From positions 288,001 to 352,000 of the forward strand of contig JBMFRC010000001.1 of NCBI GenBank assembly GCA_049968235.1: DNA of 64,000 bases, read 5' to 3'. Origin of the DNA: Candidatus Hydrogenedens sp. (lineage in GTDB: Bacteria > Hydrogenedentota > Hydrogenedentia > Hydrogenedentales > Hydrogenedentaceae). The position numbers and the translations under genes were made by a program. A model generated the notes under the pieces. It made no database searches. It worked only from the letters and a program-made list of their open reading frames with translations, and was not told the DNA's origin. Positions 10,245 through 41,601 of the stretch are shown here, one piece after another. Position 1 is the stretch's first letter; the number at the start of each line of letters is the position of its first letter.

Positions 10245-10313
10245 AACTGCATTTTATTCTAATTGCTAACTTAATAACTCCATTCTACATTTCAATTCTA
10301 TAACCATAAATGT

Positions 10314-11921: not shown

Positions 11922-11939
11922 ACGAACTCCGAGTAAGCA

Positions 11940-13951: not shown

Positions 13952-14006
13952 AAGAGTTTCTAAACGCCAGTAATATAAAAACCCAAACCGTAATGAGGAG
14001 TAAAAT

Positions 14007-14435: not shown

Positions 14436-14459
14436 ACTTTAACATAGGAACAGGTAATT

Positions 14460-22086: not shown

Positions 22087-24189
22087 ATGATTGAAAGCAG
22101 GTCGTCTTTTATACCTATAGAGATAGAACGACAATTTCTTTCTTTAGTGCAACTCCTGCATAGCAACGGGATTGGTGCAGAAGGTATTGTCCAGGTCCGG
22201 AAAGCGTTTGAATTAGCGGTATGGGCACATCAAGGGCAGGAACGTGCCTCCGGAGAGCCTTATATCACTCACCCCATAGAAGTAGCCCGATTGTTAGCAG
22301 AAATCAAACTTGACTCCATGACCATTATGGCGGGGCTCCTGCACGATGTTATAGAGGATAAACAAGTGTCACGAGAACTTCTTGAAAAAGAAGTGGGGAA
22401 AGTAGTCCTCCAGATTGTTGAAGGGGTTACCAAAGTATCCAAACAACAAATGAAGGCAACTGTTAAAGAAAATGAGGATACGCGAAAATTAGAAACCCTG
22501 CGAAAACTCTTTCTAATCGCTGTAAAAGATGTCCGTGCCTTACTGGTAAAATTGGCAGACCGTCTCCATAATATGAGAACAATCAAATACCTACCGCGGG
22601 AATCTCAAGAACGAATTTCTCGTGAAACGTTAAATATATATGCACCCATAGCCCACCGTTTAGGAATTTATCGATGGAAAATGGAATTAGAAGACCTTGC
22701 TTTTAAAGTTCTACTACCCACCGAATACAAGTGTCTGGCTTCCCGTATTGCAAGGAAAAAAGATGAACGAGAAAATGAAATCAAGAACATCATTACTTAT
22801 CTGGAGAACGAACTGAAAAATATTGGTATCCCGGCACGGATTTTAGGGAGACCCAAACATTTGTATAGTATTTACCTGAAAATGCAAAGGCAACAAATCC
22901 CTCTCGAACGAATTATGGACCTGTATGCAATACGGATTGTTGTCAATACCATCGAAGAATGTTACCGTGTGCTGGATATAGCACATCGACTGGGGAATCT
23001 TATTCCGGAGCGGTTCCGTGATAATATTCGCAAACCGAGAAGTAATGGCTATCGTTCTTTGCATACTACTGTTTTTATACCTAAAAAATATCCTCTGGAA
23101 ATTCAAATTCGAACCGAAGAAATGGACCAGGAAGCGGAATTTGGAATTGCAGCTCACTGGTTCTATAAAGAAGGTGGTGGAATAGATGATTCGCTTATGC
23201 AGAAGCGGATTGAATGGCTTCGTTCTATGGTTTCAGAACTATCTGCTCCAGGCGGTTCTTCATTCACAGCACAGGATATTCAGGATGACCTGAAAATATC
23301 CGAAATTTATATATATACGCCCAAAGGGGATGTCTTCGAATTACCTTCAAATGCCACTGTGCTGGACTTCGCATATACAATTCACACCGAAATTGGTCAC
23401 CATTGCATCGGAGCCCGTGTAAATGATAAGTATGTTCCGATAACAACCCAACTTAATACAGGTGACCGTGTTGAAATCTTGACCTCGCCGAAACAGGAAC
23501 CTCATCTGGATTGGTTAAAAATTATCACTATCGGGAAAGCACGAAATAAGATTCGGCATCACCTCCGGGAAAAGGGTATTCTACCGAAAGAGGAAGAAAC
23601 GGAAATGCCCTCTCGAAAAGAGGAGAAAAACGACGAGCGTGCAGGAAATGTCCAGACAAACAATTCCTCTCTCCCTTACCTTTCCGCATTAACAAAAATA
23701 GAATATGTTGGAGATAATAAGGAATTTGAAAAAGAACGGTATCTAAGTATACGTATCGATGGACAAAAGAATATTACTGTCCATTTTAGTCGATGCTGCA
23801 ATCCTCTTCCCGGTGATGATGTGGTTGGTTATTCTACATTAAAAGGAACCATTACAGTTCACAAAAAGGACTGCAAAATATTTAACAGTGCCTATCGTGA
23901 CCCTTCACGAATACATAAAGCTCGATGGGAAATTGATAACATTACTCACATTACTGTGCAGGTACTGGCTCGCCCATCCTCTACCGTTATTCAGGAATTA
24001 ACTTCATTACTCATAGAGAATAAAGTTCCGGTTATCTCTGCTCACTACAATTTCTTGCGGAAAGGTTTGATTAAATTTGAGTTTACACAGAAATCCATTT
24101 TTTCAGGAAATCCAAAATCTTTCGATTTGCTCATGCGTTCCATCCGTTCTATTGAAGGTGTGTTAGAAGTTCATCGCAAAACAAAATAA
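22087..24189 (+). CDS. bifunctional (p)ppGpp synthetase/hydrolase (RelA/SpoT family)
   Basis: HD hydrolase motif HDVIED, a synthetase domain (YRSLHTTV), then TGS and C-terminal ACT-like regions, in 700 aa. Confidence 0.85.
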   Translation: MIESRSSFIPIEIERQFLSLVQLLHSNGIGAEGIVQVRKAFELAVWAHQGQERASGEPYITHPIEVARLLAEIKLDSMTIMAGLLHDVIEDKQVSRELLEKEVGKVVLQIVEGVTKVSKQQMKATVKENEDTRKLETLRKLFLIAVKDVRALLVKLADRLHNMRTIKYLPRESQERISRETLNIYAPIAHRLGIYRWKMELEDLAFKVLLPTEYKCLASRIARKKDERENEIKNIITYLENELKNIGIPARILGRPKHLYSIYLKMQRQQIPLERIMDLYAIRIVVNTIEECYRVLDIAHRLGNLIPERFRDNIRKPRSNGYRSLHTTVFIPKKYPLEIQIRTEEMDQEAEFGIAAHWFYKEGGGIDDSLMQKRIEWLRSMVSELSAPGGSSFTAQDIQDDLKISEIYIYTPKGDVFELPSNATVLDFAYTIHTEIGHHCIGARVNDKYVPITTQLNTGDRVEILTSPKQEPHLDWLKIITIGKARNKIRHHLREKGILPKEEETEMPSRKEEKNDERAGNVQTNNSSLPYLSALTKIEYVGDNKEFEKERYLSIRIDGQKNITVHFSRCCNPLPGDDVVGYSTLKGTITVHKKDCKIFNSAYRDPSRIHKARWEIDNITHITVQVLARPSSTVIQELTSLLIENKVPVISAHYNFLRKGLIKFEFTQKSIFSGNPKSFDLLMRSIRSIEGVLEVHRKTK

Positions 24190-24337
24190 AATTCCTGAAA
24201 GAATATCCTCTTTCTCTTCTGAATGGTAGTTCCGGCATTCAGGTAATACTCCACTCTCCACCTATATTTCTTTTTCCTGCACCTTCTCTTGTATATACTA
24301 TCCCTGATAGAAATTACGACCTTATGTATACAAGCAA

Positions 24338-24946
24338 CTAAGAAATAATTCCCTGTTGAGTAAGGTAAATAAGTAAAAAGTTGATGGCTTGTTCTACGGT
24401 ACACTGTCCCGTATCTATTATAATTTCCGGATTTTCGGGTTCTTCATACGGGGCGGATATCCCTGTAAACTCCGGAATCTCACCCTTTTTAGCTTTTTTA
24501 TAAAGACCTTTAGGGTCTCGCTGTTCACATATATCAATATCACATTTAACATAAACTTCGATAAAATTTTTTGGATTTAGTTTGCGAGCCTTTTCGCGAT
24601 CACTACGATAGGGAGAAATAAAGGCTGTCATCACAATAAGCCCTGCATCCGCAAATAATTTTGCTACCTCACCAATACGACGAATATTCTCCTCTCTGTC
24701 CTGAGGTGAAAACCCCAAATCTTTATTTAATCCATGTCGTATATTATCACCATCTAAAACATAAGTTTTGCATCCTTTCTCAAATAAGGCATTTTCAAGA
24801 GCATGAGCAAGGGTTGATTTTCCCGATGCAGAAAGCCCTGTAAACCATATTACTGCTCCCTGATGTCCATTTGCCCGTTCACGGTCTTCCCGTTTAATAT
24901 CGCCTTGATGCCATGTAATATTGGTTGCCTTTATAATTTCTTCCAC
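24338..24946 (-). CDS. cysC: adenylyl-sulfate kinase
   Basis: [19 protein letters not shown]-loop, [16 protein letters not shown] and ISPYRSDRE are APS kinase hallmarks. Confidence 0.85.
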
Positions 24947-25029
24947 AATACCTTTCCTTAATTTTTAATGTTGCGTGAACAATTATTAATAATCAGTTTT
25001 CTTTTTACAAAAGACCTGTTTGATATAGA

Positions 25030-26562
25030 TTATCTAGTTTCCTGGGGTAGAAAATACTTCTTGATAAGGTCTAAATCTATATTGGGATACACAGGATATT
25101 GTTGTAATAATTCCAATACTCTTGCCTTTTGCTTTTTCTGGATAGAAGCGTCTAATACAAAATTCTTCCTGGAAGGTTTTCCTGCATTGGGTCCTTCACT
25201 TAGAATTTCTGGTTTTGTTTCATCTAAAACATCTTTAATAATTGATGCTATTTCTTTCATTTCTACTCCACCCATGCCCAGAGTGGTTACCGCGGGAGTT
25301 CCCAATCGGAGTCCACTTGTAATTAAAGGTCCATTAGGGTCAAAGGGCAAGGAATTGAAATTAAGTGTAATACCACATGCTCGTAATGCCCCTGCGGCTT
25401 GTCTGCCCGTTAAACCGTGACTTTCCTGAACATTTAACAACATCAAATGATTATCTGTTCCTCCTGTTGCAACTACCAATCCTTCACTTTTCAGAGATTC
25501 CGCCAGCATCTGTGCATTACGAACAATCTGCCTCGCATAATCACAAAATTCAGGGCGGTTTGCTTCTGTAAAAGCAACTGCTTTGGCAGAAAGAACATGA
25601 GGTAAAGGACCTCCTAAAACTAATGGACAACCTTTATCTACAAACTCAGCAAATTCTTTCTTGCAAAGAACAATCCCACCCCGGGGACCGCGCAGAGTTT
25701 TATGCGTGGTGGATGTAACAATATGAGCATGAGCCACCGGGTCATATTCCCCTTGAAATACTTTACCCGCTACCAGCCCTGCGAAGTGAGCCATATCTAC
25801 CATCAAAACAGCACCTACTTTATCGGCAATCTCACGAAGGCATGCAAAATTAATTTTGCGAGGATAAGCACTATAACCTGCCAGTAAAATGAGCGGTTTT
25901 ATTTCTTGAGCCATTCTCTCTATCTCGGTATAATCTAATAAACCGGTATCCCGACGAACGGTATAAGAATACGCATCGAACATTTTTCCTGAAATATTTC
26001 GACGGTAACCATGTGTAAGATGACCACCGGAATAATAATCCATTCCTAATAATCGCTGGTTACCCATCTTTTCACGAATTTTTTGCCATTGTTCTTGTGT
26101 AACTTTCGATGGGTCTTTTATATCCAGTTGTTCCAATTCCGGTGTTTCAATTTTCGCAGATAAAATTGCCCAATAAGCAACTAAATTGGCATCTGCACCA
26201 CTGTGAGGCTGGACATAGGCATGCTCTGCGTCAAATAATTTCTTCGCCTGTTCGCAAGCAATTGCTTCAATTGAATCTACATTTCCACAACCTTCGTAAA
26301 ACCGTTGATACGGTATTCCTTCTGCATATTTATCAGTCAATAGATTTGCCATTGCAAACTGCGTTGACAAAGAACAATAATTTTCACTTGCAATCAATTT
26401 TAGATAACTTCGCTGATCTATCAATTCCTGCACGATCCCTGTGGACACTTGAGGAGATACTTTGGCTACTTCTGCTAAATTACATAAGTAGCCTAAAAAT
26501 CCCGAATCCAGTTTGTCCGGCGGAGTAGAACCAATATACTCAATAATAGACGGGTGTATCAT
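25030..26562 (-). CDS. glyA: serine hydroxymethyltransferase (long form with N- and C-terminal extensions)
   Basis: LIASENY...KYAEG...THKTLRGPRGG PLP-lysine motif. The 510-aa ORF is about 90 aa longer than canonical GlyA, so the real start may be internal. Confidence 0.85.
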   Translation of the reverse strand: MIHPSIIEYIGSTPPDKLDSGFLGYLCNLAEVAKVSPQVSTGIVQELIDQRSYLKLIASENYCSLSTQFAMANLLTDKYAEGIPYQRFYEGCGNVDSIEAIACEQAKKLFDAEHAYVQPHSGADANLVAYWAILSAKIETPELEQLDIKDPSKVTQEQWQKIREKMGNQRLLGMDYYSGGHLTHGYRRNISGKMFDAYSYTVRRDTGLLDYTEIERMAQEIKPLILLAGYSAYPRKINFACLREIADKVGAVLMVDMAHFAGLVAGKVFQGEYDPVAHAHIVTSTTHKTLRGPRGGIVLCKKEFAEFVDKGCPLVLGGPLPHVLSAKAVAFTEANRPEFCDYARQIVRNAQMLAESLKSEGLVVATGGTDNHLMLLNVQESHGLTGRQAAGALRACGITLNFNSLPFDPNGPLITSGLRLGTPAVTTLGMGGVEMKEIASIIKDVLDETKPEILSEGPNAGKPSRKNFVLDASIQKKQKARVLELLQQYPVYPNIDLDLIKKYFLPQETR

Positions 26563-26616
26563 GATCAGCTCCTTAAATAAAGAAATTATATGTTTATTGA
26601 AATAATATGTTCTATA

Positions 26617-28503
26617 TTATTCAAAATTCATGATGTAACTGTAAACTCCTTCATGGAGTTGTGATTCTACTTTCAGACCACTCCGTTCAAATACCGCCTG
26701 CATAGGTTTGTTCTCACGCAGAACTTCGGCTGTAAACCCTGCAATACCATTACGACGGGCTATATTTATCAAATGACGGAAAAGGAAAGAACCAATTCCC
26801 CGGTTTTGCCATTCATCCTGAACAACGAACGCTACCTCTGCACGGTTCGTTTTCGGATTTAAGTAATAACCACCCATTGCAACAATTTCTTCTCCATCTG
26901 GATCGGGAACTGTGGCTACAATGGATACTTCATTACGATGGTCAATATACACAAATTCCTGAACCTGTTTGCGAGGGACCCATTTCATACGGCTCATAAA
27001 ACGTTTATATAGGGATTCCTGCGATAGAGAATAAAACAGTTCACGTATACGCGGTTCATCGGTTGGGTGTATAGCACGAATTGTTACGGAAGTTCCATCA
27101 TCACAAATATAAGTAGTGCGGATGTCCCTCGGACCTATTACAATCTTATTCTTAAAGTCTGTAAGTTCAGGACGAATATATTTTGATTCGATTGCTTCCA
27201 TTAATAACTTTTCGCGGAATTTTGGATGTGCAATACTAATAAGAGCCAGAGCGCGTTCCTGAACATTTTTCCCATGTAAATAGGCAACACCATATTCGGT
27301 GACAACATAATGGACATCGCCTCGGGTCGTTACAACTCCGGCACCTTCACTCAAATGACAAACAATTCGCGATACCTCTCCATTATGTGCAGTAGATGGT
27401 AAAGCAATTATGGTTTTTCCTCCATTAGAGCGAGCCGCTCCACGATTAAAATCAACCTGCCCACCAATACCGGAGTAGAATTTAGATCCCATGGAATCGG
27501 CACATACCTGCCCTGTTAAATCTACTTCTAAAGCAACATTAATAGCCACCATCTTGTTTTGTTGCGAGATAACAAACGGGTCGTTTACATATTCTGTCGG
27601 ATAGAAAGAAAATTGGGGATTGTTATGCAAATACTCATAAAGTTTTTTGGTTCCCATAGCAAAACTTGCAACGATTTTACCGCGGTCCAATGTTTTCCGT
27701 TTCCCGGTAATAATCCCTTTTTCTATAGGCTCTATAATCGAATCGGTTAACATCTCGGTGTGTATTCCCAAATCCTTTTTATCTTCTAAGAATTGAATTA
27801 CAGCCTGGGGAATACGGCCTATCCCCAATTCCAGAGTGGCACCGTCCTCTATCAAACCTGCAATGTATTGCCCTATCTCACGGGTAACATCATCCGGCTC
27901 GGCTATGGGAAATTCAATTAGCGGTTCATCCACAGGAACGAGATAATCAATATCATGTACATGGATAAAACAATCGCCCATTGTTCTGGGCATCTGCGGA
28001 TTTACCTCTGCAATAACCAATCGTGAATTTTCCGCTGCACTTTTCACGATATCCACAGAAATTCCTAAACTGCACATACCATCTTCATCCGGAGGAGAGA
28101 CCTGAATAAGTGCTGCATCCAGGGGTAACTGTCCTGTTTTAAATAAACGAGGAATATCGGATAAAAATATGGGGGTATAACCGCCTAACCCTTCCTGAAT
28201 AATATGACGGACATTCTGAGCAATGAAAAAACTATTTACCGTAAAATGATTAATCAAGTCTTTCTGGGCGTAGGGAGCATCCCCTAAAGTTAGCAAGTGC
28301 ACAATTTCTATATCTGCCAGGTCTGCATGCCTTGCTACCAATGCATCTACTAACCGTTGAGGTTGGGCACAACCCGTCCCAATAAAAACGCGGAAACCCG
28401 GTTGAATGCGAATTACCGCTTCCTGAGAGCTTACTACCATATCGGAATATTTTTCTTCCCAATTCGGGTCAAAATTCATTTCTTTTTTGGATATATCACT
28501 CAT
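26617..28503 (-). CDS. acetyl-CoA hydrolase/transferase family domain fused to C-terminal GNAT N-acetyltransferase
   Basis: The N-terminal ~430 aa resemble the Cat1/Ach1 family of CoA-transferases. The C-terminal ~190 aa carry the GNAT motif QNRGIGSFLFRHLINIARRNG. Confidence 0.65.
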   Translation of the reverse strand: MSDISKKEMNFDPNWEEKYSDMVVSSQEAVIRIQPGFRVFIGTGCAQPQRLVDALVARHADLADIEIVHLLTLGDAPYAQKDLINHFTVNSFFIAQNVRHIIQEGLGGYTPIFLSDIPRLFKTGQLPLDAALIQVSPPDEDGMCSLGISVDIVKSAAENSRLVIAEVNPQMPRTMGDCFIHVHDIDYLVPVDEPLIEFPIAEPDDVTREIGQYIAGLIEDGATLELGIGRIPQAVIQFLEDKKDLGIHTEMLTDSIIEPIEKGIITGKRKTLDRGKIVASFAMGTKKLYEYLHNNPQFSFYPTEYVNDPFVISQQNKMVAINVALEVDLTGQVCADSMGSKFYSGIGGQVDFNRGAARSNGGKTIIALPSTAHNGEVSRIVCHLSEGAGVVTTRGDVHYVVTEYGVAYLHGKNVQERALALISIAHPKFREKLLMEAIESKYIRPELTDFKNKIVIGPRDIRTTYICDDGTSVTIRAIHPTDEPRIRELFYSLSQESLYKRFMSRMKWVPRKQVQEFVYIDHRNEVSIVATVPDPDGEEIVAMGGYYLNPKTNRAEVAFVVQDEWQNRGIGSFLFRHLINIARRNGIAGFTAEVLRENKPMQAVFERSGLKVESQLHEGVYSYIMNFE

Positions 28504-30604
28504 GGCTTGTTTTAAGACCTCCTAATATCATTCGTGCATCCGCCACTGTTGGTGGAGTTCCTACTTCGCCAACAATAAACGGGTTAATATCAATTTCATG
28601 AATACCGGGGAATTCTGTGGCTAATTGACTCATTTTTTGTAGAGCCTGGGCTATCGCATGGACATCCACCGCAGATTGTCCTCGGGTTCCTTTTAATAAT
28701 GCATAAGAACGAGTTCCCACAAGCATCTGTAAGGCTTCTTCCTCTGTTATTGGGGCAAGATAAAAACTAACATCTTTCATCACTTCTACAAAAATACCGC
28801 CCAGTCCAAACATCAACATAGGACCAAATTGTGGGTCGCGATGCATCCCTAAAATTACCTCTCGACCCTGTTTTGCCATCTTTTCCACATAAATACCCTG
28901 AATTTTTGCATTTGGCATTTTACGGATTACGCGGAGCATCATTAAGTCGAAGGCATCGCGCACTTGAGAAGGATTGGATAGGTTTAAACGAACACCTCCG
29001 ATATCAGACTTATGGATAATATCCGGTGAAACGATTTTCATAGCCACTGGATAGCCAATTCGGTCTGCAATGGTTACTGCCTCTTCATCTGTTCGAGCCA
29101 ATGCCCCTGGTGGGACATAAAAATCATACGCCTGCAAAATCTCTTTTGCATCTACTTCGTTGATAAAGGTTCTTCCTTCTCGCATCTGACGACGAATAAT
29201 CCGTTCTATTCTTCTGCGGTTTACCGGAAAACGCATCACAACCCGCGGAGGTCTACGCCTCCATGCGGAATAATCACACATTGCTTTCAATGCATATACT
29301 GCCCGTTCCGGGGACGGGTAATCCGGGAGATTTGCTAACACCAATTCATCCCGCGCCGGCATAACATCCGCTCCACCCATGAATGCTGCCAGAACAGGTT
29401 TATTCCCCCGCAAATTTTTAATAATGGCTCGGGCTGTTTCTGCAGGCTGAGTCATGGCTTGTGGAGTTAATATAACAATTACAGAATCAATTGTATCATC
29501 ATCCAAAGCCGCATTTAGAGCCATAGCATAGCGTTCCGGGTCGGCATCCCCCAATACATCGATTGGATTTGCAACACTCGCCGCAGGAGGCAACTTTTGT
29601 TTCAGTGCAGAGGATATTTCTGTTTGCAATGGTTTGACTTGTAAACCCGAGTTTTCTACAGCATCTGCTGCCATAATACCGGGACCACCTGCATTGGTTA
29701 TCACCGCAACACGATTTCCCTTAGGTAAAGGTTGCATCGCTAACGCAGAAGCGTAGTCAAATAAGGATTCGAAGGTCTCTGCTCGAATAACCCCTGATCT
29801 ACGAAATGCAGCTCCATATGCAATATCTTCCCCTGCAAGACTACCCGTATGCGATGATGCGGCTCGACTACCTGCCTGTGTCGTCCCTACTTTCAAAATA
29901 ACTACCGGTTTTATCGATGCTACTTGTTCCGCTATTTTTATAAATTCTTCTCCACGCACAATATTTTCCAGATAACACGCAATAACTCTTGTTTGTTCAT
30001 CTTCACCCAACATTTGTAACAAATCAATTTCGGATATATCCGCTTTATTCCCAATGCTAATCAACTTAGCCAGACCTACACCACGACCTACAGACCAGTC
30101 CAAAATGGCTGTGCATAAGGCCCCTGATTGCGATATTACAGAGATGGAACCTTTACGAGGCATCTGGGTGGCAAAGGAAGCATTCATATTGTTCTCTGTG
30201 TTAATAATCCCCAAACAGTTCGGACCTAACAATCTCATGTGATGTTCTTTACAATACTGGGCTATTTCCTTCTCCAATAAAGCACCTTCAGGTCCTACCT
30301 CCTTAAAACCCGCAGTAATAACGCAAACGGATTTTGCTCCTGCCTGAAATGATTCTTCCAATGCGGATTTCACCAATTTGTTGGGAACTACAATAATAGC
30401 AAAATCAATGGGAATACCTGCATCTTTAGGCGTCTTGTAACATTTTAAACCTAATACTTCATCTGCGGAAGGATTTACGGGAATTACTTTCCCAGCAAAA
30501 CCGGAGGAAATTAAATTGTTTAATATGGAATATCCTACTTTGCCCGGGGTCCTTGATGCCCCAATTATTGCAATACTTTTAGGTCTTATAAGTGTTTCAA
30601 GCAT
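28496..30604 (-). CDS. ADP-forming acetyl-CoA synthetase (acetate--CoA ligase, NDP-forming; fused alpha/beta)
   Basis: CoA-binding N-terminus (SIAIIGASRTPGKVGYSIL), a succinyl-CoA-synthetase-like flavodoxin domain and a C-terminal ATP-grasp. It overlaps the downstream gene by 8 nt. Confidence 0.75.
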   Translation of the reverse strand: MLETLIRPKSIAIIGASRTPGKVGYSILNNLISSGFAGKVIPVNPSADEVLGLKCYKTPKDAGIPIDFAIIVVPNKLVKSALEESFQAGAKSVCVITAGFKEVGPEGALLEKEIAQYCKEHHMRLLGPNCLGIINTENNMNASFATQMPRKGSISVISQSGALCTAILDWSVGRGVGLAKLISIGNKADISEIDLLQMLGEDEQTRVIACYLENIVRGEEFIKIAEQVASIKPVVILKVGTTQAGSRAASSHTGSLAGEDIAYGAAFRRSGVIRAETFESLFDYASALAMQPLPKGNRVAVITNAGGPGIMAADAVENSGLQVKPLQTEISSALKQKLPPAASVANPIDVLGDADPERYAMALNAALDDDTIDSVIVILTPQAMTQPAETARAIIKNLRGNKPVLAAFMGGADVMPARDELVLANLPDYPSPERAVYALKAMCDYSAWRRRPPRVVMRFPVNRRRIERIIRRQMREGRTFINEVDAKEILQAYDFYVPPGALARTDEEAVTIADRIGYPVAMKIVSPDIIHKSDIGGVRLNLSNPSQVRDAFDLMMLRVIRKMPNAKIQGIYVEKMAKQGREVILGMHRDPQFGPMLMFGLGGIFVEVMKDVSFYLAPITEEEALQMLVGTRSYALLKGTRGQSAVDVHAIAQALQKMSQLATEFPGIHEIDINPFIVGEVGTPPTVADARMILGGLKTSHE

Positions 30605-30872
30605 AAAAAATCCCTAATCTATAAAAATAATTCTTGTTATTTTGTTTGCCTTTCTGGAACAAAATTGACATTCCAATAATTTTAGAAAAATTGGAATTTT
30701 TATAATATTATATTCCTTTTCCAGACCTCATTTCCATATAACATATTGTCTTATAAAAAGTAGAAATCAAACCCATATAAAAAACTCTACATAAACTACC
30801 ACACATAAAAGACGCACAATAATTATAAGGCTTTCACTTGGGTTGAGTAACTACATAATATTCTCAGTTAAA

Positions 30873-32852
30873 TTACCCTTTCTCTCCGCGAATGATAGTA
30901 TACAGTGCGTTTACCGCATTCTTTAATTGAACCGCCTGAGCAGAAAGTTCTTCTGCTGTGGAAGCGGTTTCTTCGGAAGTTGCAGAAATATTTTGTGATA
31001 CTTGATTGATTGAGGATAGAGCCAGATTAATCTGCTCAATACCTTGTGCTTGCTCTATAGTTGTTGTTGAAATTTCAGTGATAAGGGTAACCGTTTTTTG
31101 AACGGATTCTGTAATTGTTTGTATGGCAGAGAAAACTTTTTCAGATACCTCCGCCCCTTTAGCAACATTGACTTGTGATTGCTTTAACAATTCTGCTGTT
31201 TCTTTTGCGGCAAGGGCACTACGTTGTGCCAAATTACGTACTTCCTCTGCAACTACAGCAAAACCTCGCCCGGCTTCACCTGCACGAGCCGCTTCTACTG
31301 CAGCATTAAGTGCCAGTAAATTTGTCTGAAAGGCAACCTCTTCTATCGTTTTGATAATTTTGGCTGTTTCATCAGATGATTTCTTAATCGCGGACATAGC
31401 CTGATTAAGTTCTGTTACTGCTATTGAACTCTGTTCTGTAGCATTCTGAATTTCTAATATTTTGTTTTTGGCTTCTTCTGAATTTGAGGCACTCTCCTGT
31501 ACATGAGAAGAAATTTCTTCCAGTGAAGCAGAAGTCTCTTCTAAGGAAGATACCTGATTACTTACCTGAGAAGCCATATCCTGACTACTGCTGGCTAAAT
31601 GTTCAGAAGCGCTATCTACCTGATTGGCAGATTCGTTCAATAGATTTGATAAATCCATCATATGTGAAGTCAATCGTCTTGCCATAAAGAACCAAAACAA
31701 TAATGATACTACCAGCGTTAGTACAGATAGGGTAATTACTAAAATAATCTGATTTTGGAATGCCCCTCGAATTTTAGATTCCACTTCCTGAAGTTCATCC
31801 ACATAAGCACTGCAACCGATAACCCAATCCCATGGTTCATAATACATAATCATGGCTATTTTTTTACGGGGCGTAATATCGTCTGCTTTTTTCCATGTGT
31901 AATAATGAATTGCTGTTTCTTTTCCTTTTAATGTTAATGCTTTGTTTATAATGTTCTGTATAAAATATTCTCCATTGGCATCTTTTGTTTCCCATTCATT
32001 TTTCCCATCTCGCGTTCCTTTGTATGAAATTACACAATACCCTTTATTGATACCTTTTCCATTCAGGACAAAGACATATCCCGTTTTACCTATTACAATA
32101 TCCATAATCGCTTTTCGCAAAGCAGTGGTACTCTCCTGCGGAATACCCGCATATAACATTCCAATAACTTTTCCTCCTGAATCACATATAGGGTCATACG
32201 CCGTTATATACCAGCGGTCAACAACAAAAGCAAGTCCTTTATACCTTTCTCCTTTTAATACTGTGTTTACCTCTGCATTGGGATTACCATCCGGCTCTTT
32301 TGCAGGAATATAAGTCCCTATTGCCCGGTACCCCTCTTTCGTTAACACATTGGTACATACCCTTAACATATCTCCTGCATCATTCATTCGTTGAAAAATA
32401 GTGCAAGTTACATTCTGCAAGTTTTTCACTTCATCTACAATAGGGGAAGGAATTTTAGGGTCTTTATTCGGCTCTATGATTTTGTCCCCTATCTTCATTA
32501 ATGGTAATACTACACTTTGTTTTTCCTTCGTAATTTGATTTGTCCCTTCCCATGTTGAAAGAGAATCTGTATTAATTTTTACACCTCCGGACATCTCCAC
32601 CAACTTATGAGCAACATCCAAACTCTTACCCACATAACTTTCCAAAACTTCCTGTTGACTTTCACAGAGACTATATACTCCCTCTGTAATATGCTTTAAA
32701 TCCGAATTAGCAAGTCTCTCTGTTTCAGTTAAAACGGAATCCAGAACCTTATTGTTCTGAAAATAAACACTTAAAAAAATGATTAATGCAGGCAGTACAG
32801 TAAAAACGGCACCTAAAATTAACAGCTTTAAAGTAAGAGATAAATTCATCAT
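30873..32852 (-). CDS. methyl-accepting chemotaxis protein with periplasmic Cache-type sensor domain
   Basis: N-terminal TM, a periplasmic ~300-aa domain, a second TM, HAMP, and an MCP signalling domain (LLALNAAVEAARAGEAGRGFAVVAEEVRNLA). Confidence 0.85.
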   Translation of the reverse strand: MMNLSLTLKLLILGAVFTVLPALIIFLSVYFQNNKVLDSVLTETERLANSDLKHITEGVYSLCESQQEVLESYVGKSLDVAHKLVEMSGGVKINTDSLSTWEGTNQITKEKQSVVLPLMKIGDKIIEPNKDPKIPSPIVDEVKNLQNVTCTIFQRMNDAGDMLRVCTNVLTKEGYRAIGTYIPAKEPDGNPNAEVNTVLKGERYKGLAFVVDRWYITAYDPICDSGGKVIGMLYAGIPQESTTALRKAIMDIVIGKTGYVFVLNGKGINKGYCVISYKGTRDGKNEWETKDANGEYFIQNIINKALTLKGKETAIHYYTWKKADDITPRKKIAMIMYYEPWDWVIGCSAYVDELQEVESKIRGAFQNQIILVITLSVLTLVVSLLFWFFMARRLTSHMMDLSNLLNESANQVDSASEHLASSSQDMASQVSNQVSSLEETSASLEEISSHVQESASNSEEAKNKILEIQNATEQSSIAVTELNQAMSAIKKSSDETAKIIKTIEEVAFQTNLLALNAAVEAARAGEAGRGFAVVAEEVRNLAQRSALAAKETAELLKQSQVNVAKGAEVSEKVFSAIQTITESVQKTVTLITEISTTTIEQAQGIEQINLALSSINQVSQNISATSEETASTAEELSAQAVQLKNAVNALYTIIRGEKG

Positions 32853-33180
32853 CCTCTCCCTTGTAACTCACTATTACTATTTGTTTTAATTTTATTATTA
32901 CATAACAACGAATAGAAAAGAAACTTTTCACAAAAGAAAATAAACAAATTTTATACTGGATATTTCTAAGACTATTCAGAATAGGGTTGTCTCATTTCCA
33001 AAAAGATATATTTACTAATCTATAAAGATATTGTTTTTTATTATTTTTTGAGTAATAATATATGGGCAATTTGATTTTATATATATGATAGGAGTATGCT
33101 TTTCCTCAATTGGGCTGTTTTCAGAAAGTTTGAGACTCCCCATCGAAACTCGAAAAATCACAATTTAAAGGAGACAAAAC

Positions 33181-33948
33181 ATGTCAGTTCTTAATGGTAA
33201 AATGATTCTTATAACATCTTGCTTATTGATATCCGCTCTTTTGCTTTTTATAACCCCTGTAAGAGGGCAGGATACAGCAGAGAAACCAACGTTTGAAAAT
33301 GATGTGGATAAATTATGCTATACCTTAGGTGTAAATGTGGCGAAGACTTTTCAAATGCTAAATACAAAACCTAATTTAGATGTGTTAAACAAAGCCATTA
33401 ATGATGTTCTGGAAAATAAAACTCTGGCTATGACAGACGAGGAAATGCAGAATTGCATCCGTAGTTTCCAGCAGAACCTTATGGAAGCACAGATGAAAAA
33501 GCGAGAAGAAGATGCCGTAAAAAATGAAGCAGAAGCGAAGAAATTCCTTGAAGAAAACAAAACGAAAGAAGGTGTTGTTACACTTCCCAGCGGTTTGCAA
33601 TATAAAGTATTGAAAGAAGGGAACGGTCCTAAACCGAAAGAAACGGACAGTGTAACTGTTCATTATAAAGGCACTCTTTTAGATGGAACAAAATTTGATA
33701 GTTCTTACGACCGAGGGGAACCCGTAACATTCCCATTAAATCGTGTTATTAAAGGCTGGACAGAAGCCCTACAACTCATGCCTGTTGGTTCCAAATGGCA
33801 ACTTTTCATTCCTCCCGACCTTGCCTATGGCAAAGATGGTAATCAACGCATTCCACCGAATGCTCTACTTCAGTTTGAAGTTGAATTAATTGAAATTAAA
33901 CCTCCAGAGCAAGAAAACAACAACACGGTCCAACTTCCCAATCAATAA
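33181..33948 (+). CDS. periplasmic FKBP-type peptidyl-prolyl cis-trans isomerase (FkpA-like)
   Basis: Signal peptide plus FKBP domain (VTVHYKGTLLDGTKFDSSYDRGEPVTFPLNRVIKGWTEAL). Confidence 0.85.
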   Translation: MSVLNGKMILITSCLLISALLLFITPVRGQDTAEKPTFENDVDKLCYTLGVNVAKTFQMLNTKPNLDVLNKAINDVLENKTLAMTDEEMQNCIRSFQQNLMEAQMKKREEDAVKNEAEAKKFLEENKTKEGVVTLPSGLQYKVLKEGNGPKPKETDSVTVHYKGTLLDGTKFDSSYDRGEPVTFPLNRVIKGWTEALQLMPVGSKWQLFIPPDLAYGKDGNQRIPPNALLQFEVELIEIKPPEQENNNTVQLPNQ

Positions 33949-41100: not shown

Positions 41101-41601
41101 CATGACCCCTTAGGACCCTGGGCAAGGGTGTGGCATACATGGTTTGGTTATGTCGCATGTGCGGGTGTTGTATTTATCTTCTTATCCTGGGTAGCCTTCA
41201 TGTTCCCTGCTAAAGGGGATTTCCGTTGGTTATTGAAAGCAGGCGGTTATTTAGGTGGTGTTAAAGGACATGTTCCAGCGGGCAAATTTAATGCCGGGCA
41301 AAAAATCCTATTCTGGTTAGCAATACTTGCATCAGGGACCTGTGGAATAACAGGTGTTGTTATGGGACTTAATCGTGGTTTTCACTTCCCAAATCAAGAA
41401 ATATTCTATACGATACACGATATATCTGCACTGGTTATGATTCTGGTACTCATTGCTCATATTTATTTAGCCGCCTTTGTTGTCCCTCACAGTTTGCGGG
41501 CTATTTTCGGAGGAAAGGTAAGCGATATATGGGCAAAAGAACACCATTCACTCTGGGCTTTTACAGTAATTGATGAAAAAAACAATTCATCTGAACATTA
41601 A
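38155..41601 (+). CDS. multiheme c-type cytochrome (8 CxxCH) fused to a C-terminal FdnI/HydC-like di-heme cytochrome b membrane domain (CbcL-like domain content)
   Basis: Signal peptide, then eight CxxCH motifs (CGACH, CGVCH, CFICH, CMFCH, CIDCH, CKKCH, CTACH, CTECH). A Q/T/S/P-rich low-complexity linker follows, then four or five TM helices with conserved His (HAIAMISV, WHTWFGY, HDISALV...IAHIY). Confidence 0.8.
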   Translation: MSKSWRRCISLLVFTLGFLPFLSISAKETTEPLQNIIENYDKYIGRDLVINNRAPNAKVIRTLPLSCPPFHLRDKNGDIIDPTKNADGTPIDPNLPVQQQGIPRAVSTKQTCGACHPYDRITHGYHFQMGRDELYPDTDPSSGVPKDKSPGFFGKWLSLYQRELVGKHFENPEQVDMTPFDWIVNCGVCHPGGGPAEYDRSGKNYATVKKTSPLAGSFGDGDYHESPWEKTGVIEADCFICHLEDYEYSLRAQQIKKWNFEYAATAGAGFGFVWGSTIDGQEPKVYYNKSLFRADGTVHLHIRRPTDRQCMFCHDMSSVQKRGISWHSPYMQDVHTEQGLKCIDCHHGDIRHNFAKGDSSIQTVRDDLDNTILSCKKCHYQQEKGAPYPEHKGLPPLHLERIDCTACHITHRPFLPVSIIDPLTGKAITLPEIQDMNYWGAFEFGGFWGWSRSRDDANLIFPYTEDQLKQAKEYIISNEDNIRKMFKEAFLTDLPEGNIKVADFIQQKQGLENSEARGLMLITLSQLVRPAKEAFPVVVFRNQAYSYDAGQIRELKTTPQPKRPGATIIESSFDLGRSKPDGKIYAQNTQVSAYWVYTDGEEVRPVLLKDMKKAYDWLTSQEYSFSLYSAQPQNGQTSPALPENPFKQAQQTTTTSSENTGALQSQTSPPSDTAERKKTAEEVRQIAEMEENLKSAIQKKIKVYSTSDTRPLKIYDDNNDTFPEVNSQEEIGLFAWALKQTVPSLREKDLYYLRGTTVFRVSVKGGENPYDREFLDMDRIGENKPFIAITRYEQKEESGEYSWDKPKQVWKPVEIRLCSPYEAEIVQVDPKAYPSIIAMAKPLEWTVSHGVEPASRAYGAKGCTECHSENSSFFMGSMLVDPFSENGTPKYVPLWHILGYDISNLKIGAWREGVLKKYAPWIVLIQLLLILVHYVLIGRKEGTPVGKPNVLRFRFYERIAHAIAMISVTFLAITGFFFLMGQHDPLGPWARVWHTWFGYVACAGVVFIFLSWVAFMFPAKGDFRWLLKAGGYLGGVKGHVPAGKFNAGQKILFWLAILASGTCGITGVVMGLNRGFHFPNQEIFYTIHDISALVMILVLIAHIYLAAFVVPHSLRAIFGGKVSDIWAKEHHSLWAFTVIDEKNNSSEH

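What the first reader, a model, noticed from the sequence alone, without database searches (positions are those of the whole stretch)
26617..30604. Translationally coupled ADP-forming acetyl-CoA synthetase plus CoA-transferase::GNAT fusion
The 702-aa NDP-forming ACS overlaps by 8 nt a 628-aa protein whose N-terminal ~430 aa are an acetyl-CoA hydrolase/transferase (Cat1/Ach1-like). Its C-terminal ~190 aa are a GNAT acetyltransferase. Known protein lysine acetyltransferases of the Pat/PatZ type fuse an NDP-forming ACS-like domain to GNAT. Here the ACS is separate and a CoA-transferase is fused instead. That suggests a variant acetyl-CoA-sensing acetylation module or an acetate and acyl-CoA balancing unit.
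Basis: partly seen in the sequence, partly recalled or inferred. Interest (0 to 1): 0.5.

Follow-up and report, generated by a model that had tools for sequence, protein, structure and literature searches.

The report
ACD plus CoA-transferase–acetyltransferase gene pair
Two overlapping genes encode an ATP-yielding acetyl-CoA synthetase and a CoA-transferase fused to a Pat-type protein acetyltransferase; the pair is widespread in bacteria but apparently unstudied, and probably links short-chain acid/acyl-CoA metabolism to an acetyl-CoA-driven protein-acetylation switch.

Summary
A 702-aa ADP-forming acyl-CoA synthetase (ACD, 28496-30604, minus strand) overlaps by 8 nt (ATGAGTGA) a 628-aa fusion protein (26617-28503, minus strand). 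The fusion joins a family-I CoA-transferase to a GNAT.

One correction: the transferase is of the 4-hydroxybutyrate-CoA-transferase/AbfT/TtCoAT type (55% identical to PDB 9vag). It is not Cat1/Ach1-like.

The GNAT belongs to the Pat clade of lysine acetyltransferases. All three catalytic centres are intact: ACD His252, transferase Glu250 plus GIGGQVD, and GNAT Glu556, Arg501 and QNRGIG.

The fusion is not rare. All 120 best database hits and all 80 best genome loci carry it, across at least seven phyla. In 74 of 75 informative loci an ACD gene lies directly upstream, often with a 4- or 8-nt overlap. In about a quarter of the loci an HDAC-family deacetylase and a CBS protein join the operon, and in a few an AMP-forming Acs does.

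In some lineages the ACD or the transferase has lost catalytic residues. The GNAT never has.

I found no paper describing this architecture, and it is absent from the type I-V classification of these acetyltransferases. The best reading is an acetate/short-chain-acid and acyl-CoA node with a built-in reversible acetylation switch. The acetylation target is unknown.

The parts
28496..30604 (-). Gene for a 702-aa ADP-forming acyl/acetyl-CoA synthetase (ACD, fused alpha-beta type)
   Evidence: ORF. Pfam finds CoA_binding_2, Succ_CoA_lig, Ligase_CoA_2 and ATP-grasp_5. TIGR02717 scores 575.6 against a cut-off of 567.15. Best PDB matches are ADP-forming 4-hydroxybutyrate-CoA ligase 8wzu (4.4e-170) and the ACD alpha and beta subunits of 4xyl.
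29831..29869 (-). ACD phospho-histidine loop SRAASSHTGSLAG; the catalytic His252 codon is at 29849-29851
   Evidence: The core RAASSHTGSLAG is identical to P. horikoshii ACD 2csu. E. coli PatZ has a 4-residue deletion and no His at this loop. His is conserved in 66 of 67 ACD partners. Coordinates verified.
30533..30562 (-). ACD CoA-binding glycine loop GASRTPGKVG (residues 15-24)
   Evidence: Intact in the window. Degenerate in the pseudo-ACD partners of L045, L028 and L077.
28523..29185 (-). ACD ATP-grasp (beta) domain, residues 474-694
   Evidence: Pfam ATP-grasp_5, 1e-82. Matches the ACD beta subunit 4xyl_B at 1.3e-55.
28496..28503 (-). 8-nt stop/start overlap ATGAGTGA between the ACD gene and the fusion gene
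   Evidence: The same overlap occurs in the closest relative, L091. Among 63 related loci the overlap is 4 nt in 18 and 8 nt in 7.
28518..28522 (-). GGAGG Shine-Dalgarno-like element inside the ACD 3' end, 14 nt upstream of the fusion ATG
   Evidence: Read directly from the sequence. Its function is inferred.
26617..28503 (-). Gene for the 628-aa CoA-transferase::GNAT fusion protein
   Evidence: ORF; Pfam. The AlphaFold2 model has mean pLDDT 90.0 and pTM 0.84, with the linker at pLDDT ~78-87.
27187..28464 (-). Family-I CoA-transferase domain (residues 14-439), 4-hydroxybutyrate-CoA-transferase/AbfT/TtCoAT subfamily
   Evidence: PDB sequence matches: 9vag at 2e-147 and 55% identity, plus 3eh7, 2oas and 3gk7. 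Foldseek: 2oas TMt 0.97 and 3gk7 TMt 0.93.
27754..27756 (-). Codon of Glu250, the predicted catalytic glutamate of the CoA-transferase
   Evidence: Aligns with the catalytic Glu238 of C. aminobutyricum AbfT, 3gk7. Conserved in 64 of 64 related loci and 120 of 120 database hits.
27451..27471 (-). GIGGQVD (residues 345-351), the GXGGXXD CoA-transferase motif
   Evidence: G345 and G347 conserved 64/64, D351 63/64.
26620..27108 (-). Pat-clade GNAT lysine-acetyltransferase domain (residues 466-628)
   Evidence: PDB sequence matches: SlPatA GNAT 4nxy at 5.3e-18, MtPat 4ava at 1.1e-15, PatZ 9isq/9it0 at 2.5e-13. Foldseek: 4u5y TMt 0.93, rmsd 1.7 A. NCBIfam's best GNAT model is mycobacterial Pat, NF058543.
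26836..26838 (-). Codon of Glu556, the predicted catalytic base of the GNAT
   Evidence: Aligns to MtPat E235 and PatZ E809 (mutagenesis of E809 in PMC12184503). Conserved 64/64. Glu or Asp in 60/60 across divergent branches.
26791..26808 (-). QNRGIG (residues 566-571), the acetyl-CoA pyrophosphate-binding loop (Q/R-x-x-G-x-G/A)
   Evidence: Aligns to the PatZ P-loop G822-G824. Q566 and G571 conserved 64/64.
27001..27003 (-). Codon of Arg501 in the LYKRF motif
   Evidence: Aligns to PatZ R754, which is required for activity. Invariant 60/60.
30605..30872 (-). 268-nt AT-rich intergenic region upstream of the ACD gene; contains a promoter-like site TGGAAA-18-TATAAT at 30736..30707
   Evidence: 10 of 12 matches. 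Promoter-like sites are not enriched over shuffles, so this is only a candidate. No Rfam family was found here.
25030..26562 (-). Downstream 510-aa serine hydroxymethyltransferase gene, 54 nt after the fusion, possibly co-transcribed; not part of the conserved module
   Evidence: Pfam SHMT at 4.7e-113. No terminator-like site lies between the two genes. Present downstream only in the closest relative, L091, and absent from all 80 other loci.

Best explanation
The two overlapping genes form a conserved module at the acetate/short-chain-acid and acyl-CoA node.

Gene 1 encodes an active ADP-forming acyl-CoA synthetase (ACD): acetyl-CoA + ADP + Pi <-> acetate + ATP + CoA.

Gene 2 encodes a bifunctional protein. 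Its N-terminal 4HB-CoAT/TtCoAT-type CoA-transferase moves CoA between acetyl-CoA and other short-chain acids. With ACD, acetate then acts as a catalytic carrier. Any suitable acyl-CoA can be cashed in for one ATP, or, in reverse, a short-chain acid can be activated at a cost of ATP to ADP only.

Its C-terminal Pat-clade GNAT uses acetyl-CoA, the metabolite shared by both enzymes, to acetylate a lysine. Flux through the node is thereby tuned to the acetyl-CoA level. In many relatives an HDAC-family deacetylase encoded in the same operon would reverse the mark.

The likeliest targets are the module's own proteins: the transferase, as in Thermus TtCoAT, or the ACD. AMP-forming Acs is another candidate.

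Shown here: domain identities, intact catalytic residues, conservation of the gene pair, and the recurring neighbours.

Inferred: the enzymatic directions, acetyltransferase activity on protein, the target, and physical association of the two proteins.
For: 1. All three active sites are intact and under selection.
- ACD His252 sits in a loop whose core RAASSHTGSLAG is identical to a bona fide archaeal ACD. It is conserved in 66/67 partners, and TIGR02717 is above its cut-off.
- Transferase Glu250 aligns to AbfT Glu238. It and GXGGXXD are invariant in 64/64 loci.
- GNAT Glu556, Arg501 and the P-loop align to PatZ E809, R754 and G822-824. Those PatZ residues are functionally validated.

2. Pairing. 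In 74 of 75 loci with enough upstream DNA, a full-length ACD lies immediately upstream on the same strand, across at least seven phyla. Overlaps of 4 or 8 nt occur in 25 of 63 loci.

3. Acetylation context.
- An HDAC-family gene is present in 24/80 loci and a CBS-pair gene in 21/80. The typical order is [HDAC][CBS][ACD][CoAT-GNAT].
- In Limisphaera (L016) the order is ACD, fusion, HDAC (4-nt overlap), then a bona fide AMP-forming Acs (TIGR02188, 1027 bits).

4. Precedent. In T. thermophilus, a stand-alone transferase of this subfamily (TtCoAT) uses acetyl-CoA as donor for many short-chain acids. A GNAT acetylates it and a Zn-dependent deacetylase removes the mark (bioRxiv 10.1101/2025.10.31.685773). 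PDB 9vag is probably this enzyme and is the window domain's best PDB match at 55% identity.

5. The GNAT is the invariant core.
- Divergent branches lose the transferase Glu or GXGGXXD, or the ACD motifs (L045, L028, L074/77, L006). They keep the GNAT catalytic residues (E/D 60/60).
- An intact transferase site goes with ACD pairing. Four of the five degenerate-transferase members whose upstream gene could be read have no ACD neighbour.

6. The AF2 model is confident as a single unit (pTM 0.84, ordered linker), which is consistent with coupled domains.
Against: - No biochemical data exist for any member, as far as the searchable literature shows.
- The window itself has no HDAC, CBS or Acs gene within 64 kb.
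- Neither protein has the PX4GK motif that Pat enzymes recognise in Acs.
- The Thermus acetylation site Lys5 aligns to Asp21 here and is not conserved.
- PF00850 also covers acetylpolyamine amidohydrolases, so the HDAC neighbour does not prove protein deacetylation.
- HDAC and CBS neighbours are concentrated in Desulfobacterota, so the 24/80 figure overstates independent events. The labelled lineages are Desulfobacterota, Verrucomicrobiota L016, Trueperaceae L044 and one oddly labelled MAG, L013.
- Substrate specificity of ACD and the transferase is unassigned. All equivalog models score below their cut-offs: TIGR03948 at 320 against 674.8, and NF045493 at 679.5 against 1300.
Confidence: 0.6

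Rival explanations
1. Split Pat. The main product of the module is a regulatory lysine acetyltransferase. The ACD protein acts in trans as Pat's NDP-forming-ACS-like regulatory domain does in cis: it senses acetyl-CoA, provides the oligomeric scaffold and helps build the substrate pocket. The transferase domain is a second acyl-CoA sensor. The targets are AMP-forming Acs and other proteins elsewhere in the genome, and catalysis by ACD and the transferase is secondary.
For: - The gene order ACD then ...GNAT mirrors the N-to-C order of PatZ. PatZ needs its ACS-like domain for activity and pocket formation (PMC12184503).
- Full-length but catalytically decayed ACD genes are retained, still overlapping an intact fusion gene, in L045, L028, L074/77 and L006.
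- P0126 has a dead transferase site but keeps an ACD 3 nt upstream.
- The closest GNAT relatives include GNAT-ACD-like type II architectures (P0163, P0248).
- A bona fide Acs lies in the cluster in L016.
Against: - In the window and in 66/67 partners the ACD keeps its catalytic His. In the window the glycine loop, SQSGA and the ATP-grasp motifs are also intact.
- The ACD scores far higher against real ACDs (571 bits for 8wzu) than against PatZ (346 bits).
- The transferase Glu250 is invariant in this subfamily. Purifying selection on both active sites argues that catalysis matters.
- No Acs is encoded in the window.
Confidence: 0.2
2. Purely metabolic pair. ACD and the CoA-transferase make up a fermentative or assimilatory acetate/short-chain-acid module. 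The GNAT is not a protein acetyltransferase: it is a structural or oligomerisation appendage, an extra acyl-CoA-binding site, or a small-molecule N-acyltransferase that uses the acyl-CoA made next door.
For: - Both metabolic enzymes look fully active.
- An intact transferase site correlates with ACD adjacency.
- In the window the module stands alone with no deacetylase.
- HDAC-family neighbours could be small-molecule amidohydrolases (general knowledge of PF00850).
Against: - The GNAT's nearest characterised relatives by sequence and by fold are all protein lysine acetyltransferases: SlPatA, MtPat, MsPat, PatZ and Sulfolobus Pat.
- It keeps residues that PatZ mutagenesis shows are needed for protein acetylation, R754 and E809.
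- The GNAT catalytic residues are retained even in branches where the transferase is dead. That is hard to explain if the GNAT were only an appendage of the transferase.
Confidence: 0.15
3. The adjacency and overlap are incidental: two unrelated genes that happen to abut in this genome.
For: None beyond the fact that 4- and 8-nt overlaps are common in compact bacterial genomes.
Against: ACD lies directly upstream in 74 of 75 informative loci from many phyla, at 44-74% identity. The other neighbours (SHMT, MCP) are not conserved.
Confidence: 0.02

Closest known systems
Type I protein acetyltransferases Pat/PatZ (S. enterica Pat, E. coli PatZ; PDB 9isq/9it0)
   Same: The GNAT is of the same clade, with the catalytic Glu (E809 = Glu556), Arg754 = Arg501 and the P-loop conserved. 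It is associated with an NDP-forming acyl-CoA-synthetase-type protein placed N-terminal (upstream) of the GNAT. An acetyl-CoA-linked regulatory logic is plausible.
   Different: Here the ACS-type protein is a separate polypeptide and keeps its catalytic His, whereas PatZ has a deletion at that loop. A complete, apparently active CoA-transferase lies between it and the GNAT. No solved structure covers the fused architecture.
Type II Pat (Streptomyces lividans PatA; GNAT domain structures 4nxy and 4u5y)
   Same: This is the best sequence and fold match for the GNAT (5.3e-18; TMt 0.93, rmsd 1.7 A, 32% identity). The catalytic-water ligands are the same, including Glu593, which aligns to SlPatA E160.
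   Different: SlPatA carries its GNAT at the N-terminus of an inactive ACS-like domain. It has no CoA-transferase.
Thermus thermophilus TtCoAT (TT_C1083) with KAT TT_C1711 and Zn-deacetylase TT_C0104 (bioRxiv 10.1101/2025.10.31.685773; probably PDB 9vag/9wns/9wnu)
   Same: The CoA-transferase subfamily is the same (55% identity). A GNAT acetylates the transferase and a metal-dependent deacetylase reverses the mark, which parallels the HDAC genes found in the module's operon in other genomes.
   Different: In Thermus the KAT is a separate protein, the partner is an NAD+-sensing alanine-dehydrogenase-like protein, and there is no ACD. The acetylated Lys5 is not conserved here (it aligns to Asp21). 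Whether TT_C1711 belongs to the same GNAT clade could not be tested.
Bacillus subtilis acsA-acuABC (AcuA GNAT, AcuB CBS-ACT protein, AcuC HDAC-type deacetylase)
   Same: In about a quarter of related loci the same cast recurs in one operon: acetyltransferase, CBS protein and HDAC-family deacetylase next to an acetate-activating enzyme.
   Different: The GNAT is Pat-clade; no AcuA chain appeared among the PDB sequence matches. The acetate enzyme is ADP-forming, not AMP-forming. An ACT domain was not detected in the CBS protein, and no AcuB/AcuC-specific model matched. None of these extra genes is in the window.
ADP-forming acetyl-CoA synthetases (ACD; Pyrococcus, Ca. Korarchaeum 4xyl, Nitrosopumilus 4-hydroxybutyrate-CoA ligase 8wzu)
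   Same: Same five-subdomain architecture and phospho-His loop. TIGR02717 is above its cut-off.
   Different: Those enzymes are not known to be encoded with a CoA-transferase::GNAT partner. The substrate range of this ACD is unknown.
CoA-transferase plus NDP-forming synthetase cycles (acetate:succinate CoA-transferase with succinyl-CoA synthetase in hydrogenosomes and trypanosomatids; butyryl-CoA:acetate CoA-transferase routes in gut anaerobes)
   Same: The metabolic logic is the same (established knowledge): a CoA-transferase hands the thioester to a carrier acid, and an ADP-forming synthetase then converts that carrier's CoA ester into ATP.
   Different: Here the carrier would be acetate/acetyl-CoA, the enzymes come from different subfamilies, and an acetyltransferase domain is built in.

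Membership tests
Type I Pat/PatZ lysine acetyltransferase | C-terminal GNAT of the Pat clade with a catalytic Glu and a Q/R-x-x-G-x-G/A loop | tested here: met
   Glu556 aligns to PatZ E809 and MtPat E235. QNRGIG aligns to the PatZ P-loop. Arg501 aligns to R754. Foldseek to 4u5y gives TMt 0.93.
Type I Pat/PatZ lysine acetyltransferase | NDP-forming acyl-CoA-synthetase-like domain (~700 aa) fused N-terminally in the same polypeptide | tested here: not met
   The ACS-type protein is a separate ORF with its own stop codon. The domain fused to the GNAT is a CoA-transferase.
Type I Pat/PatZ lysine acetyltransferase | The ACS-like domain is catalytically inactive (no phospho-histidine) | tested here: not met
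   His252 is present in a canonical SSHTGSLAG loop. PatZ has a 4-residue deletion there.
Type I Pat/PatZ lysine acetyltransferase | Acetylates the active-site lysine of AMP-forming acyl-CoA synthetases | not testable with these tools
   Needs biochemistry. No Acs gene lies in the window. A bona fide Acs lies in the cluster in L016.
Family-I CoA-transferase, 4-hydroxybutyrate-CoA-transferase/AbfT/TtCoAT subfamily | PF02550 plus PF13336 two-domain fold with full-length similarity to AbfT-type enzymes | tested here: met
   Pfam. PDB 9vag at 2e-147 over residues 19-439, and 3gk7 at 4.6e-117. Foldseek TMt 0.93-0.97.
Family-I CoA-transferase, 4-hydroxybutyrate-CoA-transferase/AbfT/TtCoAT subfamily | Catalytic glutamate (AbfT Glu238) and the GXGGXXD motif | tested here: met
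   Glu250 aligns to AbfT E238. GIGGQVD is at 345-351. Both are invariant in 64 loci.
Family-I CoA-transferase, 4-hydroxybutyrate-CoA-transferase/AbfT/TtCoAT subfamily | A defined substrate class (curated equivalog score) | tested here: not met
   TIGR03948 butyryl-CoA:acetate CoA-transferase scores 320.1 against a cut-off of 674.8. Specificity is therefore unassigned.
   Only residues ~220-434 match, at E 5e-11 to 6e-10 (8dh7, 4eu3). TIGR03458 scores 115.8 against 658.7. Foldseek TMt is about 0.7 at 21% identity, against 0.93-0.97 for AbfT-type enzymes.
ADP-forming acetyl-CoA synthetase (ACD, NDP-forming acyl-CoA synthetase) | CoA-binding, CoA-ligase and ATP-grasp subdomains, with the curated model above its cut-off | tested here: met
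   Pfam. TIGR02717 scores 575.6 against 567.15.
ADP-forming acetyl-CoA synthetase (ACD, NDP-forming acyl-CoA synthetase) | Phospho-histidine in the swinging loop | tested here: met
   His252; the loop core RAASSHTGSLAG is identical to 2csu. Conserved 66/67.
ADP-forming acetyl-CoA synthetase (ACD, NDP-forming acyl-CoA synthetase) | Acetate/acetyl-CoA as the physiological substrate | not testable with these tools
   The best full-length equivalog is 4-hydroxybutyrate-CoA ligase NF045493, at 679.5 against a cut-off of 1300. Specificity is unresolved.
AcuABC-type reversible acetylation operon | HDAC-type deacetylase and CBS protein encoded with the acetyltransferase | tested here: not met
   Not in this window: tblastn with 6 representatives of each family found no hits. 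The feature is met in relatives, with HDAC in 24/80 loci and CBS in 21/80.
AcuABC-type reversible acetylation operon | AcuA-type GNAT | tested here: not met
   At E <= 0.01 the PDB sequence search with the GNAT returned Pat-type chains, one phosphinothricin-acetyltransferase-like chain and one generic acetyltransferase, and no AcuA chain.

The most novel reading that the evidence does not exclude
The ACD + CoA-transferase::GNAT pair represents a sixth, undescribed class of bacterial lysine-acetyltransferase system. In it the acetyltransferase is fused to one of its own substrate or sensor enzymes and works in a complex with an active ACD, forming a self-contained acetyl-CoA homeostat. It would also be the still-enzymatic ancestral state from which the pseudo-enzyme regulatory domains of Pat-type acetyltransferases arose. 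This is suggested by lineages in which the ACD or the transferase has already decayed while the GNAT persists.
Probability: 0.3. Interest if true: 0.7.

Novelty: new variant of a known kind. Interest (0 to 1): 0.55.

Why it matters
Reversible lysine acetylation of acetate-activating enzymes is the textbook example of metabolic control by post-translational modification in bacteria. The known acetyltransferases fall into five architectural types, and none of them contains a CoA-transferase (PMC8556138; PMC12184503).

This module would add a widespread class. It is found in Hydrogenedentota, Verrucomicrobiota, Planctomycetota, Desulfobacterota, Myxococcota, Actinomycetota and others, which are mostly uncultured anaerobes important in carbon turnover.

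It would also extend acetylation control to two enzyme types whose regulation is barely explored: ADP-forming synthetases and CoA-transferases.

Finally, it offers a natural series that could explain how Pat acquired its inactive ACS-like domain: all enzymes active, then a dead ACD or a dead transferase, then a stand-alone sensor-GNAT.

For genome annotation, it means these genes should not be read simply as '4-hydroxybutyrate CoA-transferase' or 'GNAT family N-acetyltransferase'.

Tried and rejected
- A first regex for the ACD His loop matched the SQSGA motif instead, and I mis-indexed His as 253. This was corrected by alignment: the residue is His252.
- Junction distances from naive longest-ORF starts were inflated. 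I redid them with homology-guided start codons.
- A look-up of the exact window protein found nothing on record.
- No HDAC, CBS, Acs or Ack-Pta relative lies in the window. Neither protein has a PX4GK motif, and the window has no Acs A10 motif.
- No Rfam family lies in 24000-33200. Promoter- and terminator-like sites are not enriched over shuffles, so the operon boundaries are only suggested.
- The afdb50 fold library was unavailable.
- NCBIfam gave no AcuB- or AcuC-specific match for the neighbours, so I call them only 'HDAC-family' and 'CBS-pair'.
- Eight literature searches for the fusion, for ACD acetylation and for TT_C1711 found no description of this architecture (one further query was rejected for syntax). 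The GNAT clade of Thermus TT_C1711 could not be determined.
- The idea that Thermus Lys5 marks a conserved acetylation site was rejected, because it aligns to Asp21. An N-terminal-tail lysine is present in 99/120 homologs, but that is too weak to count as evidence.
- The figure of 591 genome hits is an upper bound. The search patterns lie in the transferase C-terminus, so only the best 80 loci were verified as fusions.

Full report
**1. Observation**

The ORF list shows a 702-aa ORF at 28496..30604 and a 628-aa ORF at 26617..28503, both on the minus strand. They share 8 nt, 28496-28503, which read ATGAGTGA on the coding strand. A GGAGG lies 14 nt upstream of the second ATG.

Pfam assigns the following domains:
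- 702-aa protein: CoA_binding_2, Succ_CoA_lig, Ligase_CoA_2 and ATP-grasp_5. This is the fused alpha-beta form of an ADP-forming acyl-CoA synthetase (ACD).
- 628-aa protein: AcetylCoA_hydro (residues 32-193), AcetylCoA_hyd_C (284-437) and a GNAT (Acetyltransf_1, 519-609).

The fusion is not an assembly artefact. All 120 best hits in the large protein database have the same ~625-aa architecture at 68-91% identity. The closest relative shows the same 8-nt overlap and the same downstream gene.

**2. What each part is**

*ACD*
- It passes the curated TIGR02717 cut-off (575.6 against 567.15).
- It is closest to solved ADP-forming ligases: 8wzu at 4.4e-170, and the ACD alpha and beta subunits of 4xyl. 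E. coli PatZ is a weaker match at 346 bits.
- The core of the phospho-histidine loop (RAASSHTGSLAG, within SRAASSHTGSLAG, His252) is identical to that of Pyrococcus horikoshii ACD. PatZ has a 4-residue deletion and no His there.

*CoA-transferase domain*
- Full-length matches are to 4-hydroxybutyrate CoA-transferases: 9vag at 2e-147 and 55% identity, plus 3eh7, 2oas and AbfT 3gk7.
- Ach1 and AarC match only the C-terminal half, at about 1e-10.
- Glu250 aligns with the catalytic Glu238 of AbfT, and GIGGQVD (345-351) is the GXGGXXD motif.

*GNAT (residues ~466-628)*
- It aligns end to end with Pat-type lysine acetyltransferases: S. lividans PatA at 5.3e-18, M. tuberculosis Pat at 1.1e-15, and E. 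coli PatZ at 2.5e-13.
- By that alignment, Glu556 = PatZ E809 = MtPat E235, Arg501 = PatZ R754, and G569-G571 = the PatZ P-loop G822-G824. PatZ E809 and R754 were shown by mutagenesis to be needed for activity (PMC12184503).

*Whole-protein model*
- The AlphaFold2 model built with a 60-sequence alignment is confident: mean pLDDT 90.0, pTM 0.84, and linker pLDDT about 78-87. Only residues 1-6 are disordered.
- Foldseek against the PDB finds no chain covering both halves (best TMq 0.66).
- The transferase half superposes on 2oas and 3gk7 (TMt 0.97 and 0.93).
- The GNAT half superposes on the SlPatA GNAT solved with its Acs substrate (4u5y, TMt 0.93, rmsd 1.7 A).

**3. Distribution and synteny**

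A scan of one genome per GTDB species used the C-terminal 229 residues as an alignment. The best 80 loci were kept.

The search patterns lie in the transferase C-terminus, so 591 is an upper bound. I verified the 80:
- All 80 carry the transferase fused to the GNAT.
- In 74 of the 75 loci with enough upstream DNA, a full-length ACD homologue (44-74% identity) lies immediately upstream on the same strand. The exception is L042.

By submitters' labels, the loci come from Hydrogenedentota, Verrucomicrobiota (including Kiritimatiellae and Lentisphaerae), Planctomycetota, Desulfobacterota (many Desulfobulbaceae), Myxococcota, Actinomycetota and Trueperaceae.

With homology-guided start codons over 63 loci, the ACD stop and fusion start overlap by 4 nt in 18 loci and by 8 nt in 7. 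In total 33 loci overlap, and 12 more lie within 0-30 nt.

The window's other neighbours are not conserved partners. These are SHMT and APS kinase downstream, and a Cache-type chemoreceptor upstream. The exception is that SHMT follows the fusion in the closest relative.

**4. Recurrent extra neighbours**

I clustered all ORFs of the 80 loci and scanned representatives with Pfam.
- A Hist_deacetyl (PF00850) protein occurs in 24 loci, and a ~218-aa CBS-pair protein in 21.
- The typical same-strand order is [HDAC][CBS][ACD][CoAT-GNAT].
- This arrangement dominates in Desulfobacterota. HDAC genes also flank the pair in a Limisphaera (L016), a Trueperaceae (L044) and another MAG (L013).
- In L016 the cluster reads ACD, fusion, HDAC (4-nt overlap), then a bona fide AMP-forming acetate-CoA ligase (TIGR02188, 1026.8 against 724.95).
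- In Myxococcota loci an acetate/butyrate-kinase::phosphotransacylase fusion and a degenerate Acs-like gene precede the ACD.

The cast resembles B. subtilis acsA-acuABC. However, no AcuB- or AcuC-specific model matched, and the GNAT is Pat-clade, not AcuA-like. None of these extra genes is present in the 64-kb window.

**5. Which parts are indispensable**

Within the window's subfamily every catalytic residue is invariant over 64 loci:
- Glu250, Glu556, Q566 and G571: 64/64
- G345 and G347: 64/64; D351: 63/64
- ACD His: 66/67

An exhaustive search with the GNAT alone shows that its nearest relatives fall into three groups:
- further CoAT-GNAT fusions, down to about 35% identity
- short GNATs or fragments
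- a few GNAT-ACD-like (type II Pat) proteins

No type I Pat appears in the top 150.

In the divergent fusion branches the transferase active site is often lost while the GNAT is kept:
- Glu250 is replaced in 8 of 60 sequences, and the GXGGXXD motif is frequently degenerate or deleted.
- The GNAT keeps Glu or Asp at 556 (60/60), Arg501 (60/60) and the P-loop.

Of the degenerate-transferase members whose upstream gene could be read, four have no ACD neighbour (P0171, P0162, P0197, P0224). One, P0126, keeps an ACD with an intact His 3 nt upstream.

Conversely, some ACD partners have decayed: Desulfonatronovibrio L045 and Myxococcota L006, L028 and L074/L077. They have lost the glycine loop, SQSGA or the His loop, yet remain full-length and directly upstream of, mostly overlapping, an intact fusion gene.

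Two conclusions follow:
- The GNAT is the constant element.
- Either partner can become a pseudo-enzyme. That is the route Pat is thought to have taken with its inactive ACS-like domain (PMC8556138).

**6. Literature**

The five-type classification of bacterial GNAT lysine acetyltransferases lists:
- NDP-forming-ACS-like regulatory domains (types I and II)
- cAMP, ACT or NADP sensors (type III)
- GNAT-only proteins (type IV)
- tandem GNATs (type V)

It contains no CoA-transferase type (PMC8556138). The 2025 PatZ structural paper surveyed only those known types (PMC12184503). Eight full-text searches found no description of the fusion, of its operon, or of ACD acetylation.

The closest experimental precedent is a 2025 preprint (10.1101/2025.10.31.685773):
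- T. thermophilus TtCoAT is annotated as a 4-hydroxybutyrate CoA-transferase.
- It transfers CoA from acetyl-CoA to many short-chain acids and is needed for growth on butyrate.
- It is the major protein acetylated by the stand-alone GNAT TT_C1711, mainly at Lys5.
- The Zn-dependent deacetylase TT_C0104 removes the mark.

PDB 9vag starts ...Y3-R4-K5-K6, which fits that paper's Lys5 and Lys6, so it is probably TtCoAT. That is my inference. It is the best solved match of the window's transferase domain.

**7. Most likely mechanism**

*Shown*
- Three intact catalytic modules.
- A deeply conserved and often translationally coupled gene pair.
- Recurrent deacetylase, CBS and Acs neighbours.
- A GNAT that is never lost.

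*Inferred*
- ACD and the transferase share acetyl-CoA and acetate. Together they convert other acyl-CoAs to free acids with one ATP gained. Run in reverse, they activate short-chain acids at ATP-to-ADP cost.
- This logic is established for CoA-transferase/synthetase cycles such as ASCT/SCS.
- The GNAT reads the acetyl-CoA level and acetylates a lysine on the transferase, the ACD or AMP-Acs. Where a deacetylase is present, it resets the system.

I put about 0.6 on this combined metabolic-plus-regulatory reading.

*Rivals*
- The split-Pat variant, in which ACD is chiefly a trans-acting regulatory subunit, is the main rival (0.2). It may well hold in the lineages with decayed ACDs. It fits the window less well, because every ACD motif is intact here.
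- A purely metabolic reading with a non-protein-acetylating GNAT gets 0.15.
- Chance adjacency is excluded.

**8. Caveats**
- No activity has been measured for any member.
- The window lacks a deacetylase and an Acs.
- Neither protein has the PX4GK motif of classical Pat substrates.
- Thermus Lys5 is not conserved, since it aligns to Asp21.
- PF00850 also includes small-molecule amidohydrolases.
- The HDAC and CBS association is phylogenetically concentrated.
- Substrate specificities are unassigned, because all equivalog scores are below their cut-offs.

**9. Verdict**
- The finding is real and correctly described, apart from the transferase subfamily.
- It is not peculiar to this genome. It is one member of a large and widely distributed family that, as far as I could find, has not been characterised.
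- It is best filed as a new architectural variant of Pat-type lysine-acetyltransferase systems. It is not a member of type I Pat, because it fails the fused and inactive ACS-domain criteria.
- Interest is moderate to good (0.55): specialists in bacterial acetylation and anaerobe metabolism would find it useful and testable, but it is not categorically new.

Noticed in passing
window 25030-26562 (-): The serine hydroxymethyltransferase directly downstream (54-nt gap, own AAGGAG ribosome-binding site) is 510 aa, about 90 aa longer than typical SHMTs. Pfam matches it in two stretches. The same 510-aa SHMT follows the fusion in the closest relative (L091) but in none of the other 80 loci.
   Followed up: partly
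window 30873-32852 (-): A methyl-accepting chemotaxis protein with a Cache_3-Cache_2 sensor domain lies 268 nt upstream on the same strand as the ACD gene. Cache domains often bind small carboxylates, so a functional link to an acetate/short-chain-acid module is conceivable. The neighbour is not conserved elsewhere.
   Followed up: no
L006, L024, L074, L077 (Myxococcota loci), roughly 1-5800: The order is [acetate/butyrate-kinase::phosphotransacylase fusion, ~623 aa] [degenerate AMP-forming Acs-like protein that keeps a C-terminal ...SGK] [ACD-like protein with decayed Gly loop, SQSGA and His loop] [intact CoAT-GNAT]. This is a cluster of acetate-activation look-alikes, several apparently pseudo-enzymes, around an intact acetyltransferase.
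   Followed up: partly
L045:3712-5820 (Desulfonatronovibrio MAG): A full-length 702-aa ACD homologue lacks the catalytic His (loop ARVSSMPDTGPAA) and has altered Gly-loop and SQSGA motifs. It still overlaps the intact fusion gene by 8 nt, and an HDAC-family gene is nearby.
   Followed up: partly
P0213 (960 aa, from the representative search): A variant carries an N-terminal 4Fe-4S dicluster region in front of the CoA-transferase::GNAT, which suggests a redox-sensing version of the same architecture.
   Followed up: no
L066, L067, L071 (upstream of the HDAC gene); also L003, L029, L078: A 2-isopropylmalate-synthase-like gene (cluster c8; identified by eye, not Pfam-checked) recurs near the module in six loci. 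From memory, the Thermus KAT TT_C1711 was first reported to acetylate isopropylmalate synthase (Yoshida et al. 2019). I did not verify that here, and the recurrence may be coincidence.
   Followed up: no
L042:~5800-14600 (Verrucomicrobiae MAG): This is the only locus without an upstream ACD. It has two CoAT-GNAT-like ORFs flanking a longer ACD-like gene of 42% identity, so the order is fusion, ACD, ..., fusion.
   Followed up: no
window 52173-57416 (-) and 38155-41601 (+): Very long ORFs (1747 aa and 1148 aa) elsewhere in the window. Not examined.
   Followed up: no
L010, L015, L018, L020, L021, L030, L051, L052, L058, L062: In high-GC loci a ~700-aa antisense ORF (cluster c5) spans the fusion gene and displaced it in my simple ORF filter. 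This is an ORF-calling artefact, not a gene. tblastn confirms that the fusion is present in these loci.
   Followed up: yes
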